A DNA stretch of 64,000 nt from a virus: positions 32,001-96,000 of the IMG/VR virus record IMGVR_UViG_3300025362_000004. One strand, given 5' to 3'. A program made the translations under genes and the position numbers. A model generated the notes under the pieces. The model made no database searches. It was not told the origin of the DNA and saw only the letters and a program-made list of their open reading frames with translations. Numbering within the stretch: position 1 is the first letter of the stretch; each line of letters starts with the position of its first letter. Positions 13,411 to 56,945 of this stretch are shown here, one piece after another.

Positions 13411-13969
13411 TTTTTTTTTGCAACATTATGAGTCAATAATGAATGTTCATTTTTATTATTATATGATTAATAATGAATAAAAATCACCTATTTTAGCCCA
13501 TTTTAGTGCATTTTATGCGTATTTTACGCCATTTTACATCATTTTAGTACAAAAATGAACAATAATCGTTCATTATTAATGATTATTGTTATTAAATAAA
13601 CGTGAATATAATGTGGTAATGTTTACTTAGTTTTATCCTCGTTGCCAAAACGTGACAACGTGAGACTATCGATACTCGATGGATCAGGTGTACCGTACGA
13701 ACCGCCGCATAGTCTACATATATTCACGCAAGAACACGCAAGGTTTTTGGAATTGTAGATTTGACTTTTTATGTAGTCTGTGATATACTTATAGTATAAA
13801 GAGTAAGAGATAAAGTGAGAAAAGGTTCTATCTAACTTGGTAACTACCATAAAGTAATGGAAATATAAACTTGACTTTATATCTAATCTATGATATACTA
13901 TATATGTAATAGAGTAGAGATACTTTATATACACTTGGTAGGCAAACCCTACCCGAAAGGAGAATTACA

Positions 13970-14265: not shown

Positions 14266-14342
14266 GCTCCCATAGACAAAACGGTAAAGTCACTAGGCTT
14301 TCAACCTAGAATTTGCGGGTTCAAACCCCGTTGGGAACACCA
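14266..14342 (+). tRNA. tRNA-Glu(TTC)
   Basis: Cloverleaf, loop CTTTCAA, CCA end. Confidence 0.9.
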
Positions 14343-14346
14343 AATG

Positions 14347-14405
14347 GCCAATATGCGAATGGTCGCAACCAATTCGCCGCAGGGCTAAACCCTGCTAGGT
14401 CTCCA
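14347..14405 (+). ncRNA. D-armless tRNA-Cys-like RNA
   Basis: GGC start, GCA in hairpin loop, T-like arm, U73-CCA end. Confidence 0.4.
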
Positions 14406-14485
14406 AAACGAGCGAAAGTCGTCCAGCCAAGGGCGTAACTCTTCTTGAGCTTCTCTAGAGTATAAAGAAAGAAAGGCTCACCCAT

Positions 14486-14567
14486 GGGGTTGTAAGGGTT
14501 CGACAGTATTGTAAACCAACAAACGGAGCAATGCTGGACAGGGGTTCAACTCCCCTCAATTCCACCA
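14486..14567 (+). ncRNA. Mini-tmRNA: tRNA-like domain only, no tag reading frame
   Basis: GGGG..TTCGAC 5' end, 9-bp P2 hairpin, GAC.GGGGTTCAACTCCCC T arm, G3-U70, TCCACCA end. Confidence 0.8.
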
Positions 14568-14624
14568 ATAACTGGAATATAGATTTGACTTTATTAGTAA
14601 TCTATGATATAATTATAATATAAG

Positions 14625-15525
14625 AAAAAGAAAAAAATAATTTTAGTCGCCTGAGCACTAACAGGTTCCATAATCTTAGGAATAATTAACCCGTATGAGT
14701 AGGAATAAAATATCAGCGATAGACCATTGGGAAAGATACGGATAGTTCGCGCCGTTCTAAAGACTAAATTATAATTTTCTCTATTGCACTGAGTGTTAGG
14801 TTCCCCCTAAGCCTAGCCCCGAGTGGAGCAGAGAAATACTGCATAGTCAGAGTAACGCCTGTATAAATCTCGCGTTTGAAAAAAGGGAATGGAGAGTAAC
14901 AGCCCTAGAAAAGACTTTCCGCGTTCGGGCTTGTGTTACTAATTTTATGGAGCCTTGCTACCCAGCAAAATCAAAAAAAATAGCGATAGGTTGTGAGCTT
15001 AATGAGGTTGAAAGAATACCAAACCAAACTCTCCTATATGTCGCATAGCTCAATTGGATAGAGCAACTTTAAATAAGAGACAGGGTTTGATTCCCCAAAC
15101 GGCACCGTGGCAGTAGATGGAGCTGACTGGATAAAACTACCGAGTGTGAGGACGCACTATAAACACAGTCACCTGACCAGTTTGAAATCTGGTGTATCAA
15201 AATTTATTGCGTGGTCTTAGGAAAGGCGCCCCAATAGGGGAGAAGTTGGTTCGATTCCATCCGCAACGGGGTAGCTCCCCATGTCCTGCAGGACTATAGT
15301 CTTTTAGTGTTTTATATACTCTTAATAAATCACTGTGTATGGGTTCCACCAGAAAACCTAGGCCTAAGAGTTCGGCCTTCAGAATTGAATCGGAGGAGCG
15401 GCAACCTCGGCGCAGAAAACCGCCCTTAATTTATAAGAATCTGCATTATCGTTTATATAAGACGACTGGGCGTCTATAAAAATTCCCTATACTTTAAAAG
15501 CTATCCTTTATTGGATAGCTTTTTT
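14625..15525 (+). ncRNA. Non-coding transcript with several structured elements and a degenerate tRNA (15040-15106)
   Basis: Promoter at ~14585, no ORF of 60 aa or more, terminator 15497-15525. Confidence 0.45.
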
Positions 15526-15659
15526 CTATAACATTCCCTCCCAATAATGAATATTCATTTTTAATATTCAATAATAAAAATAAACAAAAATATGCCTCTA
15601 AAAGCGAAAATAAAAAATTTTCGTATTTAGCCACGCAAATTATCGATTATCGATAAACC

Positions 15660-16040
15660 AATAAAAAAGAAGACAACACTTTGGTTTCCACACCATACAT
15701 GTTATCTTCTCTTTTGCCACTTTTCGCTGGCAACGCTGGATACGTATCTCGAGCTCGTTCATCCTAGTTAAACGTCGTTGGTAAACAAGTCTTGGGTTAG
15801 TCTCGACGGCATGATGTTTTCGCGCACATGCTTTACTACACCTCACATTTTATAGAGCTAGAGGTTTCCTACCGCTTTTATGGTACGTTTAAAGCTGGTT
15901 AAATTCCGTGTCCTTTACGAGACAAGTCGTCGCTACTTATTGAGCAATAGTCAAATCTCTTTTGCCGACTAAACAAGGCAGATTATTCCCTTTGTATAAA
16001 GAAAAATACTCAAGTAATTACTCTCTTTCTTTATCTTTAT
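15660..16040 (-). ncRNA. Putative ~380-nt ncRNA
   Basis: Minus-strand promoter (~16045-16080), GC-richer structured body, terminator with T-run at ~15660. Confidence 0.45.
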
Positions 16041-16469
16041 AACTAATTATATCATAGATTAAGTAAAAAGTCAAATCTAAAAAAATAAAATATTTTTGTG
16101 GCTCTATTATCGACTATCGATAGTGCTATGACTAACTAAAAATTCATCGATATTATAATGATAGGTTAATTTTTCTCTATATTCTGGCTTCCCTAAAGCA
16201 ACAAAATCGCAATCCCGAACTCCAACCACAATTCACAATTTCCTCTCTCTGAGGGTAATTGATGCGGCGATACGGTCAATCGTTTCTATTACTCCTGAAT
16301 AACAACTCACCTAGTCTCTTAAGTCTGAGTTTACTTACTCTCAAGTGCTTTCTTAATGCGTTTAAATTCCTCTGTATTCCTTATCCATTCCCAGCTATCC
16401 TTACCAGTATCCACATTTAACAAACTTATTACTCCTTCACCAAGCCACTCTAAATCATTCAGTAATCTG

Positions 16470-16757
16470 TTATTTTCCATCATTTTTCTCCAACTCGTTT
16501 ACTTTCTCTTCGAATACTTCAATCACAAAACATATCGCAAGGTTAAATATATCAGTTGCAACGTTTTCTAGATTATCTTGAACCATAATAATACGCTCAA
16601 TTTGTTCCTTAGCTTCTTTGCATTCAGGAGAATCTATTCCCTTAAACATTGTCACAAGTTTATAATGTTCTATTGCTATTAATTTTGCTTCCTCTAATTC
16701 ATTTAATATAAGAATATAAGCTTTTGCTCGTTTTCTTTCAATTCTACTTTTTCCCAT
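16470..16757 (-). CDS. Hypothetical protein
   Basis: ORF with RBS. Confidence 0.75.
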   Translation of the reverse strand: MGKSRIERKRAKAYILILNELEEAKLIAIEHYKLVTMFKGIDSPECKEAKEQIERIIMVQDNLENVATDIFNLAICFVIEVFEEKVNELEKNDGK

Positions 16758-17260
16758 TTATTTCAATTTCCTTTCGTTAATTTTTATAATGCTTCGTTTA
16801 CTTTTGCTATTTCGTATCTAAGTGGTTATGCTTCGCCAGAGCTATCCATAGTCAGAAAAAGTGCGCCCGAAGATTGATTTAGACACGCCCAAGGGAATGA
16901 GCTCGGAGAGCGATTTTCCTTGTCCCCCTTGGGGGGTTGGGGGCAACTAACCTAAGAGCCTCGGTGCGGCTACTTCAACTTAATATAGAGCGGGAGTGGA
17001 AATGAGATTACATACCCCACCCCTACCCCTCCCAAGGGAGGGGATTCAAGACGTCAGGCCTTCGGCCTTCGTCATATCAGGAGAATAAATAAATTTCGGC
17101 TTAATTCCTTTTATGATAGGTTTAGGTCGGTGAAACAAATTATATTAAGATATAGTCCTACGGACGTTATCGAAGACTTAGCAGTCTTCTATTAATATTA
17201 TAACATAATCTTAAAACTTTTACAAATTTGCCACTATTTTTTTCATATTTTTCTTGTAGG

Positions 17261-18148
17261 TCACTCTTTATCCTCAATAATCTCCCATAATTTTATATAA
17301 TTCCAAGTAATTTGTAACTCTTTTTCAATATCATTTAATTCAACGTTTTTAAAAGCCTTCGTTGTATCTATTACATCAAGTCTTTTTAGCATGGCAATAG
17401 AATTTAGCTTCGGATTATTAGTATATCTGATACCAATAGGATTGCCATTATACTTACCTGCGGTTTTACGCTCTCCACGAAGGAAACCATAAAAGTTACC
17501 ACTATCAACTTCTAACTCTTGTGCGGCTTTGTAGGCTGTAAGATAAGTTCCTATTATTTGTTTACTATTCATATTATATACTTCCACTCCATTAGTAAAT
17601 TCAAGAGTTTGCATACGCCTACTTAAATGATTTTCTATATTTACTTTACTAAAATCTTTAACGAAAGCGAAAGTAAAACCATTTGCAATAAAATGACCAT
17701 CTTTTCTATGACATATATTTGAAATACTCGTTGGGGCGATATCCAACTTTTTACCCATAGCTGTTACACTATCTTCTTGAGAAATTATTTCAAATGTCCA
17801 AGCGTGTATTTGGTATACAGGCTTAGAATTTTTCTTGCTCAAACCACCCATACTTCGACCACCATTTGCTATATTATAACCTTTTGGTATCTTAGTGTCA
17901 AAATTAGAAATATAAAATATTTCCTTATCATCTAATTCGCTGTTCGGAATGTCGCCTTCGACTTCCTCAATTTTAAACTTATCAAAGCCATATTTTACCA
18001 TTGCAGATAAGATTGCTGAGTTATGCGAAATACTAGCAGATTTATGCCCGTATTTATAATTATTCCAACGATTTCCAATTGCTTGAGTTGTAAGCCCAAT
18101 ATAAATCTTATCATTTACTGAATTTGTTATTTTGTATATAAAACCCAT
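17261..18148 (-). CDS. GIY-YIG homing endonuclease with NUMOD1-like repeats
   Basis: FIYKITN...YIG...E......GYN motifs. Confidence 0.9.
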   Translation of the reverse strand: MGFIYKITNSVNDKIYIGLTTQAIGNRWNNYKYGHKSASISHNSAILSAMVKYGFDKFKIEEVEGDIPNSELDDKEIFYISNFDTKIPKGYNIANGGRSMGGLSKKNSKPVYQIHAWTFEIISQEDSVTAMGKKLDIAPTSISNICHRKDGHFIANGFTFAFVKDFSKVNIENHLSRRMQTLEFTNGVEVYNMNSKQIIGTYLTAYKAAQELEVDSGNFYGFLRGERKTAGKYNGNPIGIRYTNNPKLNSIAMLKRLDVIDTTKAFKNVELNDIEKELQITWNYIKLWEIIEDKE

Positions 18149-45507: not shown

Positions 45508-45584
45508 TGGAGTGTAGCTCAGAAGGATAGAGCGCACGCCTGATAAGCGTGAGGTCGAGGGTTCAATTCCCTCTTCTCCAACCA
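45508..45584 (+). tRNA. tRNA-Ile(GAT)
   Basis: Loop CTGATAA. Confidence 0.9.
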
Positions 45585-45587
45585 AAC

Positions 45588-45979
45588 GGGGCTGTTTATG
45601 GATTCGACAGGGTAAAAACGGATACGATTAGCATAGGTTCGATGGAACTAAAACACACGATAAAACAATCGGAAACTTATTTAACACAGTTATTTCTTGG
45701 GTAAAGGGTTTATTCTCTCCAAGAGTAGCACTTTCAGTCTAAGAAGAGACAGAACGAATTTATAACTATTACCTATAAGTTATAATTTCGCCAGAATATA
45801 GGATACGACTACTGACTAATACAAAGTGGTAAGAGATAAATTGTATTGAACGATTCGTAATAAAGTTTGTATGTAGTAAAAAGCGAAAAGTTCTAAAACC
45901 CTCTAAAAACATACTAACTATGTAGAATATGGTATCACGAATATCGTGGACAGGGGTTCAAATCCCCTCAGCTCCACCA
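45588..45979 (+). ncRNA. ssrA: tmRNA; predicted tag (A)GNLFNTVISWVKGLFSPRVALSV (45671-45742)
   Basis: GGGGCTG..GGATTCGAC 5' end; GAC.GGGGTTCAAATCCCCTCAGCTCCACCA 3' end. Confidence 0.95.
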
Positions 45980-50278: not shown

Positions 50279-51170
50279 AGTTTAGTGTCTCTAAAGGGAA
50301 AAGGTGGGTAACCATCTGGAAGGTATTTGACAAATATCGCTATGTAATATAGCCCGTCTAAACAAAAGTAGTCAAGTGAGAGTATTAAAAATGTAGCTCA
50401 CTCTTCAAGATAGTAACGAATTGTTGGAGAATAGATACTGTTATTATGTTAAAAGGAGTCAACGGCAAGTGCTTAGATTCTGTGGTTATCTCGTGGTGGG
50501 ATAATCGGCATATCCAAAAATAATAGAATTGAAAGAAAACTACAAGGGTAATAAGTATGAGGTTAGCAACTAAATGCAGTTACCCATTAAGTAAAGTAAA
50601 AATGGAGCTTTATTTAAAGTGAAAGTACCGCGAGGAAATCACAACGGAGATATTGAATATTTTGTGTCCCAAAAGGAAACGAAGTTCAGGTTGAAGTATA
50701 TCTTCTGTCAAAACAAACAATACATATGGGGGTTCGAGTCCCTCCCTAGCCTCCAATAAAAATTATATGGCTGGGTAGCTTAATGGGTAAAGCAGTTGTC
50801 TAAGAAACAATACATTTGTATAAGCGAAATCTTCAAAGATTTAAGATGAAAATGCCTTAATTCCACAGAGTAATACTTAATGTGGAGCAGTAAAACTCGC
50901 AAGGTAATACTGTTTGATAAGGAAATGCACGGCGTCTCTAGCGAGACTTAGTGAGTCGCAAGCTCACACGGTAATGGAATTGTCGATTAATCTTAAATGA
51001 CAGGGTGCTAAGCATCATCCTTCCAGAGATGGTAAAACAAAGCAGGCATGCTTCTAAACAGACCCGAGTCTGTGGATAAGTTAATTAACACGTGCAGATA
51101 AGCATCGCGTGGTACGATTAACTAAAGTAGGAGTATTAAAGATATAATCTCAGTCTTTAAAAACTAAACT
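50279..51170 (+). ncRNA. Large structured ncRNA, domain 2 (~890 nt, GOLLD-like candidate) with embedded permuted tRNA
   Basis: AGTTTAGT/ACTAAACT closing helix; terminator 51171-51195; no ORF. Confidence 0.7.
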
Positions 51171-54927: not shown

Positions 54928-55113
54928 TATAGATTGTGCGACTTTTGAATAAAAAGTCGCATTTTTTATTATTGACTTTTTTCCAATTTTGTGATATAAT
55001 AAATTATAAAGATGTAAAGGTAAAGTTATTGGGAAATAACTACACAAAATTAAGAGCCTAGAACAGGTAGTCTGATTGCCACTTTAAATCAAAAAACTTA
55101 AAGGTGGTTTAAA

Positions 55114-56867: not shown

Positions 56868-56945
56868 GGGAGTATAGTGTCAACTGGACAGCACGTCGGC
56901 CTTCAAACCCGTACAGCCCCAGTTCAATTCTGGGTACTCCTGCCA
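56868..56945 (+). tRNA. tRNA-Trp(TCA), UGA-decoding
   Basis: Acceptor GGGAGTA/TACTCCT, G73, loop CTTCAAA (anticodon 56903-56905), short variable loop. Confidence 0.85.

What the first reader, a model, noticed from the sequence alone, without database searches (positions are those of the whole stretch)
14486..14567. Tag-less 82-nt mini-tmRNA alongside a full tmRNA
Seen: all tmRNA tRNA-like-domain hallmarks are present (stemless D loop ending TTCGAC, P2 helix CAGTATTGT/GCAATGCTG, GAC linker, T arm, G3-U70, ACCA), but P2 is capped by a 15-nt loop in place of the pseudoknots and tag frame. Established: tag-less tmRNAs are known from jakobid mitochondria, and SmpB binds this domain. Inference: an SmpB sponge blocking host trans-translation, or a rescue RNA that frees ribosomes without degradation tagging.
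Basis: partly seen in the sequence, partly recalled or inferred. Interest (0 to 1): 0.85.

Follow-up and report, generated by a model that had tools for sequence, protein, structure and literature searches.

The report
Phage tag-less mini-tmRNA gene
This salt-lake phage carries a real 82-base gene for only the alanine-accepting, tRNA-like end of the bacterial ribosome-rescue RNA (tmRNA), a type already published from mycobacteriophage DS6A; unusually, the same phage also keeps a complete tmRNA with its own conserved tag.

Summary
Window 14486-14567 (+) matches Rfam tmRNA RF00023 end to end at 65.1 bits (cut-off 47, E 4e-23), with 302 internal model positions skipped.

It is not a new kind. A "TLD only" tmRNA is published for mycobacteriophage DS6A, and a similar molecule strongly inhibited tmRNA in E. 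coli (PMC4131195 and PMC11915505, passages). This scan has also reported the class many times on other DNA.

A strict pattern found 57 such stretches in viral contigs. Of these, 51 have a 7-bp acceptor stem, and all 51 carry G3-U70. The helices covary strongly.

Specific to this phage:
- A complete tmRNA lies 31 kb away. Its 23-residue tag is conserved in a second phage.
- Both RNAs were together in none of the 56 other mini-bearing records.
- The mini is absent from five relatives.
- The phage has no SmpB, Pth, RF-1-domain protein or integrase.

Best reading, inferred: once charged, it competes with tmRNA for host SmpB and stalled ribosomes. Function is untested. No RNA data exist.

The parts
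14486..14567 (+). TLD-only (tag-less) mini-tmRNA gene, 82 nt. Layout: acceptor 5' 14486-14492; D-region 14493-14503; P2 14504-14512 paired with 14528-14536; cap 14513-14527; GAC linker 14537-14539; T arm 14540-14556; acceptor 3' 14557-14563; ACCA 14564-14567.
   Evidence: RF00023 65.1 bits, cut-off 47; fold; sequence; identical in contigs of 4 other runs.
13871..13899 (+). Promoter-like site (TTGACT, 17 nt, TG-TATACT). Candidate start of the unit: 81-aa ORF, tRNA-Glu, spacer, mini-tmRNA.
   Evidence: Consensus scan, 10 of 12 matches. The number of such sites in the region is no higher than in shuffles, so this is only a candidate.
14266..14342 (+). tRNA-Glu(UUC), 143 nt upstream on the same strand. 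Probably co-transcribed and co-processed with the mini-tmRNA.
   Evidence: ARAGORN; Rfam tRNA 61 bits. No +strand terminator lies between them.
14343..14485 (+). 143-nt G+C-richer spacer, the 5' leader of the mini-tmRNA. Its last base precedes G1, where RNase P would cut (inferred).
   Evidence: Fold -42.7 kcal/mol, z -2.24, 5 of 200 shuffles as good. No Rfam family over its cut-off.
14585..14613 (+). Strong promoter-like site (TTGACT, 17 nt, TG-TATAAT) 18 nt after the CCA. It starts the next, separate ORF-free unit (about 14620-15526) and marks the 3' boundary of the mini-tmRNA unit.
   Evidence: 11 of 12 matches. Hairpin plus T-run at about 15499-15526 read from the sequence.
45588..45979 (+). 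Full-length standard tmRNA of the same phage, directly after tRNA-Ile (45508-45584).
   Evidence: RF00023 94.2 bits; ARAGORN; 72% identical over positions 12-392 to tmRNAs in two other viral contigs.
45671..45742 (+). Tag reading frame of the full tmRNA: GNLFNTVISWVKGLFSPRVALSV, then stop.
   Evidence: The resume codon is placed by the Rfam alignment and translated. A homologous tag, GNLFTKAVSWVKSLFSRPTVALSV, is called at the same place in G062. ARAGORN's tag for the window lies at gene position 201 and is not conserved.

Best explanation
This is a genuine phage gene for a tmRNA reduced to its tRNA-like domain: acceptor stem with G3-U70, D-region, P2a helix with a small cap, T arm and encoded CCA. 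It has no pseudoknots, resume codon or tag frame.

Proposed mechanism (inferred):
1. It is transcribed with the upstream tRNA-Glu and cut out by the host tRNA-processing enzymes.
2. Host AlaRS charges it with alanine, and host SmpB binds it. The phage has no SmpB.
3. It then competes with full-length tmRNA for SmpB, EF-Tu and stalled ribosomes. Tag-directed proteolysis of stalled products falls during infection.

Shown here: identity, structure, class-wide covariation and the gene's stability in the natural population. Inferred from published work on similar RNAs: charging, SmpB binding and inhibition.
For: Identity:
- RF00023 65.1 bits, E 4e-23, full model span.

Class:
- 57 viral stretches match a strict TLD-only pattern.
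- In 44 unique members plus the window, P2 pairs 2-6 are paired in 214 of 225 cells, against 73-101 when the partner is slid.
- T-stem pairs 1-2 are paired in 90 of 90 cells, against 28-33 when slid. Each position shows 4-6 pair types.
- G3-U70 is present in 45 of 45.
- 52 of 56 records searched hold a short hit over the Rfam cut-off.

Same architecture as DS6A, including an A-rich cap with a CC...GG hairpin.

Published work:
- A similar TLD-only RNA strongly inhibits tmRNA in E. coli (PMC4131195, PMC11915505; passages).
- SmpB's globular domain binds the TLD (PMC3929946, passages).

This phage:
- It has no SmpB, so it must use the host's.
- No conserved protein neighbour exists across the class: at most 12 of 45 loci share one, and those belong to one phage clade.
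- The stretch is unchanged in contigs of four runs; the runs that hold the region are dated 2010 to 2019.
Against: - No expression, charging or binding data exist for this RNA.
- The phage also keeps a full tmRNA with a conserved tag frame. An SmpB-titrating RNA should inhibit that too, unless the two are expressed at different times. Timing could not be determined.
- According to PMC4131195, inhibition did not need chargeability. Yet G3-U70 is invariant in the class, which points to a role that needs alanylation.
- The mini is absent from 5 of 5 relatives, two of them complete genomes. It is also absent from G062, which has the homologous full tmRNA. It is therefore dispensable in this lineage.
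- Folding energy alone is unremarkable (z -1.44).
- The acceptor-stem counts are biased, because I kept only sequences with at least 6 of 7 acceptor pairs. The pattern also fixed the TTCGAC, GGAC, T-loop and CCACCA letters.
Confidence: 0.5

Rival explanations
1. Productive tag-less rescue. Ala-mini-tmRNA with SmpB enters stalled ribosomes and accepts the nascent chain. With no template, one or several alanines are added. A host factor (ArfB, or drop-off followed by Pth) then releases the chain. Ribosomes are freed without the host's degradation tag, or with an Ala tail.
For: - G3-U70 is kept in 45 of 45 aligned members, and in 51 of 51 pattern hits that have a 7-bp acceptor stem, while acceptor pairs 4-6 vary freely. 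The CCA is encoded.
- SmpB with a TLD fragment supports polyalanine synthesis without mRNA in vitro (Shimizu and Ueda 2006, as described in PMC3929946, passages).
- Peptidyl transfer to a TLD-only tmRNA occurs in vitro (PMC3895274, passage).
- CDS-less mitochondrial and plastid tmRNAs are conserved together with SmpB (PMC11915505, passage).
- Coexistence with a full tmRNA is easier to explain if the two RNAs do different jobs.
Against: - The phage encodes no Pth, no RF-1-domain protein (ArfB or a release factor) and no SmpB. Release would depend wholly on the host.
- The only in vivo result in print for such an RNA is inhibition (PMC4131195).
- No Ala-tailed products are known for any phage.
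Confidence: 0.25
2. Neutral passenger. It is a deletion derivative of a tmRNA gene carried along in a variable, accessory part of the genome, with no role in infection.
For: - Absent from 0 of 5 relatives' records and from G062.
- It lies among accessory units and near a GIY-YIG homing-endonuclease gene, 17261-18148 on the minus strand.
- Earlier scan notes report minis in the slot where sister phages keep a full gene (untested here).
Against: - Every structural and identity element is intact.
- The class shows compensatory changes in three helices, which decaying remnants would not keep.
- The sequence is unchanged in four independent assemblies.
Confidence: 0.1
3. A decoy or titrator for something other than SmpB, for example a host defence or toxin that recognises tRNA or tmRNA acceptor/T-arm shapes, or a tRNA-processing enzyme. 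Alternatively, a DNA-level attachment site for integration into the host tmRNA gene.
For: - The phage is unusually rich in tRNA-like RNAs: 40 tRNAs, and scan notes describe tRNA mimics (unchecked).
- Other contigs from the same lake end with a tmRNA-like 3' end that differs from the mini's last 34-36 bases by 2-3 letters.
Against: - No tyrosine or serine recombinase is found in the complete genome, so an attachment-site role is unlikely.
- The conserved parts are exactly those that define the tmRNA TLD (D-region TTCGAC, GAC linker, G3-U70), not a generic tRNA shape.
- No defence system that targets tmRNA was identified here.
Confidence: 0.07
4. It is the acceptor piece of a circularly permuted (two-piece) tmRNA gene whose coding piece starts just downstream.
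For: - Rfam tmRNA_permuted RF04321 gives a weak hit at 14507-14654: 23.7 bits, E 0.0045.
- One of the 57 pattern hits (L057) did turn out to be part of a permuted gene with the tag ANDESYRIAA.
Against: - The score is half the cut-off of 47 and comes mostly from the T arm and CCA.
- The mini's own 5' strand pairs 7 of 7 with G3-U70. By my reading, the candidate downstream 5' strand pairs only 5 of 7 and lacks G3-U70.
- The TTGAC aligned to the D-region there is the -35 box of a strong promoter-like site.
Confidence: 0.03

Closest known systems
'TLD only' (standard, no CDS) tmRNA of Mycobacterium phage DS6A (JN698994 28478-28560; PMC4131195 Table 2; PMC11915505; Mao et al. 2009 RNA Biol 6:355, not held, known only through those two papers)
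   Same: - Phage-encoded and about 82-83 nt.
- 7-bp acceptor stem with G3-U70, stemless D-region, P2 helix, T arm.
- P2 closed by an A-rich cap with a small CC...GG hairpin.
- No pseudoknots and no tag frame.
   Different: - DS6A has GTCGAC rather than TTCGAC, a different T arm and no encoded CCA; it ends ACTA.
- DS6A does not reach the Rfam cut-off, while this one scores 65 bits.
- The hosts differ: an actinobacterium for DS6A, an unknown host in a low-G+C salt-lake phage here.
- The papers I read do not mention a full tmRNA in DS6A, and I did not scan its whole genome. This phage has one.
CDS-less tmRNAs of jakobid and other mitochondria and of Mallomonadaceae plastids (PMC11915505, passages; Jacob et al. 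2004, cited there)
   Same: tmRNA reduced to the tRNA-like domain, with no tag reading frame. The plastid forms are about 65 bp.
   Different: They are organellar, mostly permuted genes with their own Rfam model (RF02544). They are the only tmRNA of the compartment and co-occur with an imported SmpB. Here the RNA is an extra copy in a virus, beside a complete tmRNA.
Standard bacterial and phage tmRNA (Rfam RF00023), including this phage's own at 45588-45979
   Same: The TLD is homologous. The two RNAs of this phage have the same T-stem (AGGGG/CCCCT) and are identical at 30 of the last 34 positions (my count).
   Different: - 302 model positions are missing: PK1-PK4 and the mRNA-like region.
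- Acceptor pairs 4 and 5 and the P2 sequence differ from the phage's full tmRNA, so it is not a recent in-genome deletion copy of it.
Synthetic TLD fragments used in trans-translation biochemistry and crystallography (PMC3929946; PMC3895274; passages)
   Same: The design is the same: 5' and 3' TLD strands joined by a short loop. Such RNAs bind SmpB, accept peptides and support template-free poly-Ala synthesis in vitro.
   Different: Those are laboratory constructs from Thermus and E. coli. This one is a natural gene with a 15-nt cap.

Membership tests
tmRNA tRNA-like domain (Rfam RF00023) | Covariance-model score over the curated cut-off, spanning both the 5' and 3' ends of the model | tested here: met
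   65.1 bits against 47, model positions 1-374; 56.5 bits when scanned alone.
tmRNA tRNA-like domain (Rfam RF00023) | 7-bp acceptor stem with the G3-U70 alanine identity pair, discriminator A and CCA | tested here: met
   GGGGTTG pairs with CAATTCC, 7 of 7, with G3-U70 and also G4-U69; ACCA is encoded. Actual charging is not testable here.
tmRNA tRNA-like domain (Rfam RF00023) | Stemless D-region ending TTCGAC, then P2 helix, GAC linker and T arm with GGTTCRANTCC; no anticodon arm | tested here: met
   Sequence and Rfam alignment. ARAGORN calls no tRNA there.
Functional full tmRNA (trans-translation template) | Resume codon, tag reading frame with stop, and pseudoknots | tested here: not met
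   Only 15 nt lie between the P2 strands, and 302 model positions are skipped. It is therefore not a tagging tmRNA.
TLD-only / 'standard, no CDS' tmRNA (DS6A type) | Complete TLD in standard (unpermuted) order, with P2 closed by a short cap and nothing else | tested here: met
   The layout is the same as DS6A and as 44 unique viral examples.
TLD-only / 'standard, no CDS' tmRNA (DS6A type) | Inhibits tmRNA function when expressed; binds SmpB | not testable with these tools
   Reported for a similar molecule (PMC4131195, PMC11915505; passages). No data exist for this RNA.
Permuted two-piece tmRNA (Rfam RF04321) | Score over the cut-off; acceptor 5' strand and coding piece downstream of the CCA | tested here: not met
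   23.7 bits against 47. By my reading, the downstream candidate strand pairs 5 of 7 without G3-U70.
Mitochondrial CDS-less tmRNA (Rfam RF02544) | Match to the specialised model | not tested
   RF02544 appears in no scan. However, overlapping hits of one clan are collapsed to the best, so there is no separate score.

The most novel reading that the evidence does not exclude
The phage runs a two-RNA takeover of ribosome rescue. The first RNA is a phage-lineage full tmRNA that attaches its own conserved 23-24-residue tag ending VALSV. The second is a chargeable tag-less TLD that is not a passive sponge. It acts on the ribosome, either as a template-free alanine or Ala-tail donor, or as a timed switch that shuts off host tagging.

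This would happen in a phage that reads TGA as Trp in its late genes, so that stop-codon read-through should flood the cell with non-stop ribosomes.
Probability: 0.12. Interest if true: 0.75.

Novelty: new member of a known kind. Interest (0 to 1): 0.4.

Why it matters
Tag-less tmRNAs are listed in print as rarities. Nine 'standard, no CDS' sequences appear among 97,179 in the 2025 tmRNA database, and one of them is from a phage (PMC11915505, passages). Yet a single strict pattern finds 57 in viral contigs, and standard annotation misses them.

This case shows that a phage can keep both a tagging tmRNA and a tag-less one. That is hard to square with the simple 'SmpB sponge' idea. It makes the question of what such RNAs do on the ribosome directly testable, using two natural RNAs from one genome.

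If they block or redirect trans-translation, they are a common and unrecognised way for phages to manipulate host protein quality control.

Tried and rejected
**Searches that led nowhere**

- Expression: the look-up of sequencing runs listed 21 runs, 20 of them holders, in 19 studies. No RNA holder was listed.
- Close relatives:
  - The two neighbour proteins gave no relative in viral contigs.
  - INPHARED matched the 3.5-kb region only through tRNA-Glu, in 353 records.
  - The 82-nt query matched only 32 bases of the 3' end, in 4 records.
  - A subfamily pattern returned only L042.
  - ORFs of L009-L065 showed only weak scattered similarity to this genome.
It is not diagnostic.
- Conserved protein partner of the class: none. 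The largest neighbour cluster covers 12 of 45 loci, all from one clade, and Pfam gives nothing translation-related.
- Rfam E-value scan of 14560-17300: only RT-17 (25.2 bits) and Pistol (21.4 bits), both below their cut-offs.
- MAFFT alignment A1 misaligned the 5' acceptor strands. I therefore counted pairs on anchored positions in a script and did not use the count of structure pairs or a covariance model.

**Readings rejected**

- Permuted-gene reading (see rival explanations).
- Attachment-site reading: no integrase in the genome.
- L057 as a second example of mini plus full tmRNA: it is a permuted tmRNA gene.
- ARAGORN's tag for the window's full tmRNA: rejected in favour of the frame shared with G062.

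**Rows dropped**

Of the 57 pattern hits, 50 are unique. Six were left out of the pair counts because they had fewer than 6 acceptor pairs: L018, L030, L022, L033, L057 and L058. L058 is cut by the locus end.

**Not seen**

- Supplements were not consulted. Supplementary tables of PMC11915505 may list more phage CDS-less entries.
- Mao et al. 2009 is not held and is known here only through two citing papers.

**Print searches for the class**

Only PMC4131195 and PMC11915505 mention a phage TLD-only tmRNA.

Full report
**What is there**

Window 14486-14567 (+) reads, in order:
- a 7-nt acceptor 5' strand
- an 11-nt stemless D-region ending TTCGA
- a 9-bp P2 helix (CAGTATTGT paired with GCAATGCTG, two G-U pairs) closed by the 15-nt cap AAACCAACAAACGGA
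- a GAC linker
- a 5-bp T stem with a 7-nt loop
- the acceptor 3' strand
- ACCA

The acceptor pairs 7 of 7, with G3-U70 and also G4-U69. Rfam's tmRNA model RF00023 matches it from model position 1 to 374 at 65.1 bits (cut-off 47, E 4.2e-23 for the window). [quoted passage not shown] RNAfold gives the same three helices, though the energy is not unusual (z -1.44). ARAGORN does not report it.

**Where it sits**

The window is bases 32001-96000 of a 123,582-bp viral record that CheckV rates 100% complete. The phage has about 30% G+C. It carries:
- 40 tRNA genes, a full tmRNA, a GOLLD RNA and a c-di-GMP-I riboswitch
- gyrase, DnaB, RecJ, a UvrD-type helicase, a DNA ligase and GIY-YIG nucleases

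Its left 31 kb gives long ORFs only if TGA is read as Trp. This agrees with an earlier scan note that calls it a code-switching phage.

The mini-tmRNA lies 143 nt downstream of a lone tRNA-Glu on the same strand. A promoter-like site at 13871-13899 and an 81-aa ORF precede them. A strong promoter-like site at 14585-14613 follows and starts a separate ORF-free unit of about 900 nt.

The region is held by 20 public DNA runs labelled salt lake metagenome or metagenome and dated 2010 to 2019. In four of them, contigs cover the mini-tmRNA with no differing letter. The gene is therefore real and stable in nature.

**It belongs to a class**

A strict pattern (TTCGAC, 20-50 nt, GGAC, T arm, CCACCA) found 57 stretches in IMG/VR.
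- 51 have a perfect 7-bp acceptor stem, and all 51 have G-T at 3:70. Neither property was required by the pattern.
- In 44 unique sequences plus the window, P2 pairs 2-6 are paired in 214 of 225 cells, against 73-101 with the partner slid by 1-2.
- T-stem pairs 1-2 are paired in 90 of 90 cells, against 28-33 when slid.
- Acceptor pairs 4-6 are paired in 135 of 135 cells, against 39-78 when slid. This last figure is biased by my filter of at least 6 acceptor pairs.
- Each variable position shows 4-6 pair types.
- 33 of 45 caps contain an A-rich run followed by CC, as the window does.
- RF00023 finds a short hit (73-100 nt) over its cut-off in 52 of the 56 records that could be searched.
- One pattern hit, L057, is really part of a permuted tmRNA gene.

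**It is already known**

Hudson, Lau and Williams 2014 (PMC4131195, passages) list 'Mycobacterium phage DS6A (TLD only)'. [quoted passage not shown] 2009. Nawrocki, Petrov and Williams 2025 (PMC11915505, passages) repeat this. They count 9 'standard, no CDS' sequences among 97,179.

I fetched DS6A (JN698994 28478-28560). It has the same layout and a similar cap, but no encoded CCA, and it does not reach the Rfam cut-off.

This scan has reported phage TLD-only tmRNAs on other DNA many times. I found no other paper on the class.

**What is particular here**

The same phage has a complete tmRNA at 45588-45979 (94.2 bits). The Rfam alignment puts its resume codon at 45671. The frame reads GNLFNTVISWVKGLFSPRVALSV, then stop.

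Two other viral contigs (L204 in record G062, and L208) carry tmRNAs 72% identical to it over positions 12-392. In G062 (102 kb, 100% complete), ARAGORN calls the homologous tag GNLFTKAVSWVKSLFSRPTVALSV at the same place. The full tmRNA therefore looks functional, and ARAGORN's tag for the window is a miscall.

How the two RNAs of this phage compare (my count):
- They share the T stem and are identical at 30 of the last 34 positions.
- They differ in acceptor pairs 4-5 and in P2, so the mini is not a fresh deletion copy of the resident full gene.

How often the pairing occurs:
- None of the 56 other mini-bearing records has a full-length hit over the cut-off. Most of those records are fragments; 8 are at least 90% complete.
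- G062 has no mini. Its 74-nt weak hit is tRNA-Ala.
- Five relatives were found through the 599-aa protein at 51-52% identity. One complete genome has only a full tmRNA, one complete genome has neither, and three fragments have none.

The mini is therefore an accessory gene in this lineage, and the pairing of mini and full is rare in what I could examine.

**How it most likely works**

The phage has no SmpB, Pth, RF-1-domain protein or integrase. No protein neighbour is shared across the class. The RNA must therefore act through host factors.

Published biochemistry shows that SmpB binds the TLD, that a TLD-only RNA can accept a peptide, and that TLD plus SmpB supports template-free polyalanine synthesis (PMC3929946 and PMC3895274, passages).

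My best reading (0.5) is competition with tmRNA for SmpB, EF-Tu and stalled ribosomes, which lowers tagging. The invariant G3-U70 argues that charging matters, so the RNA probably acts on the ribosome rather than as a passive sponge.

The main rival (0.25) is productive rescue without a tag, or with an Ala tail. Less likely are a neutral passenger (0.1), another kind of decoy or an attachment site (0.07), and the acceptor piece of a permuted gene (0.03; RF04321 gives only 23.7 bits). None of these could be tested functionally. No RNA run holds the stretch (reported under Tried and rejected).

**Verdict**

This is a genuine gene and a new member of a published but barely charted kind. Interest is moderate because of the co-resident, apparently functional full tmRNA in a TGA-recoding phage.

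Noticed in passing
window 45588-45979 (tag frame 45671-45742); L209 6647-7040: ARAGORN's tag for the phage's full tmRNA (SPEYRIRLLTNTKW, at gene position 201) is probably wrong. The Rfam-aligned resume codon gives a 23-residue tag ending VALSV, and this tag is conserved in a second phage's tmRNA (72% nucleotide identity). It is a phage-lineage tmRNA with an unusually long, non-canonical tag.
   Followed up: yes
window 14620-15526: An ORF-free unit of about 900 nt directly after the mini-tmRNA. It has its own strong promoter-like site and a hairpin plus T-run at its end, raised G+C and tRNA-shaped pieces. No Rfam family is over its cut-off (best: RT-17 25.2 bits, Pistol 21.4 bits). An earlier scan note also flagged it.
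   Followed up: partly
L057 1143-1555 (minus strand): A permuted tmRNA gene (tag ANDESYRIAA). Its acceptor piece is preceded by a degenerate extra 5' TLD half, so the upstream part looks like a standard-order mini-tmRNA with a 5-of-7 acceptor stem. It resembles a tandem-duplication intermediate on the way to a permuted gene.
   Followed up: partly
genome 1-31000 (left of the window); window 56868-56942: Under code 4 (TGA = Trp) the left arm gives ORFs of up to 1802 aa, where code 11 gives fragments. Rfam finds a tRNA at 56868-56942 that ARAGORN misses; a scan note calls it tRNA-Trp(UCA). This fits a code-switching phage.
   Followed up: partly
window 14535-14570, contigs of runs X9 and X16: Other contigs from the same lake match only the last 34-36 bases of the mini-tmRNA, with 2-3 differences. 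Upstream they continue with sequence typical of a full tmRNA 3' region. They could be the host's tmRNA or another phage's.
   Followed up: no
window 16800-17100: A G+C-rich (0.45) stretch with long C-run and G-run complementary blocks, just upstream of a GIY-YIG homing-endonuclease gene (17261-18148, minus strand). It may be a structured RNA or a mobile-element end.
   Followed up: no
window 55009-55083 and 50645-51156: A c-di-GMP-I riboswitch (49.1 bits) directly upstream of a 157-aa ORF, and a GOLLD RNA scoring exactly at its cut-off (150.4 against 150), both in a phage.
   Followed up: no
window 14343-14485: The 143-nt spacer between tRNA-Glu and the mini-tmRNA folds better than most shuffles (z -2.24) and has raised G+C. 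It may be a structured leader or a separate small RNA.
   Followed up: partly
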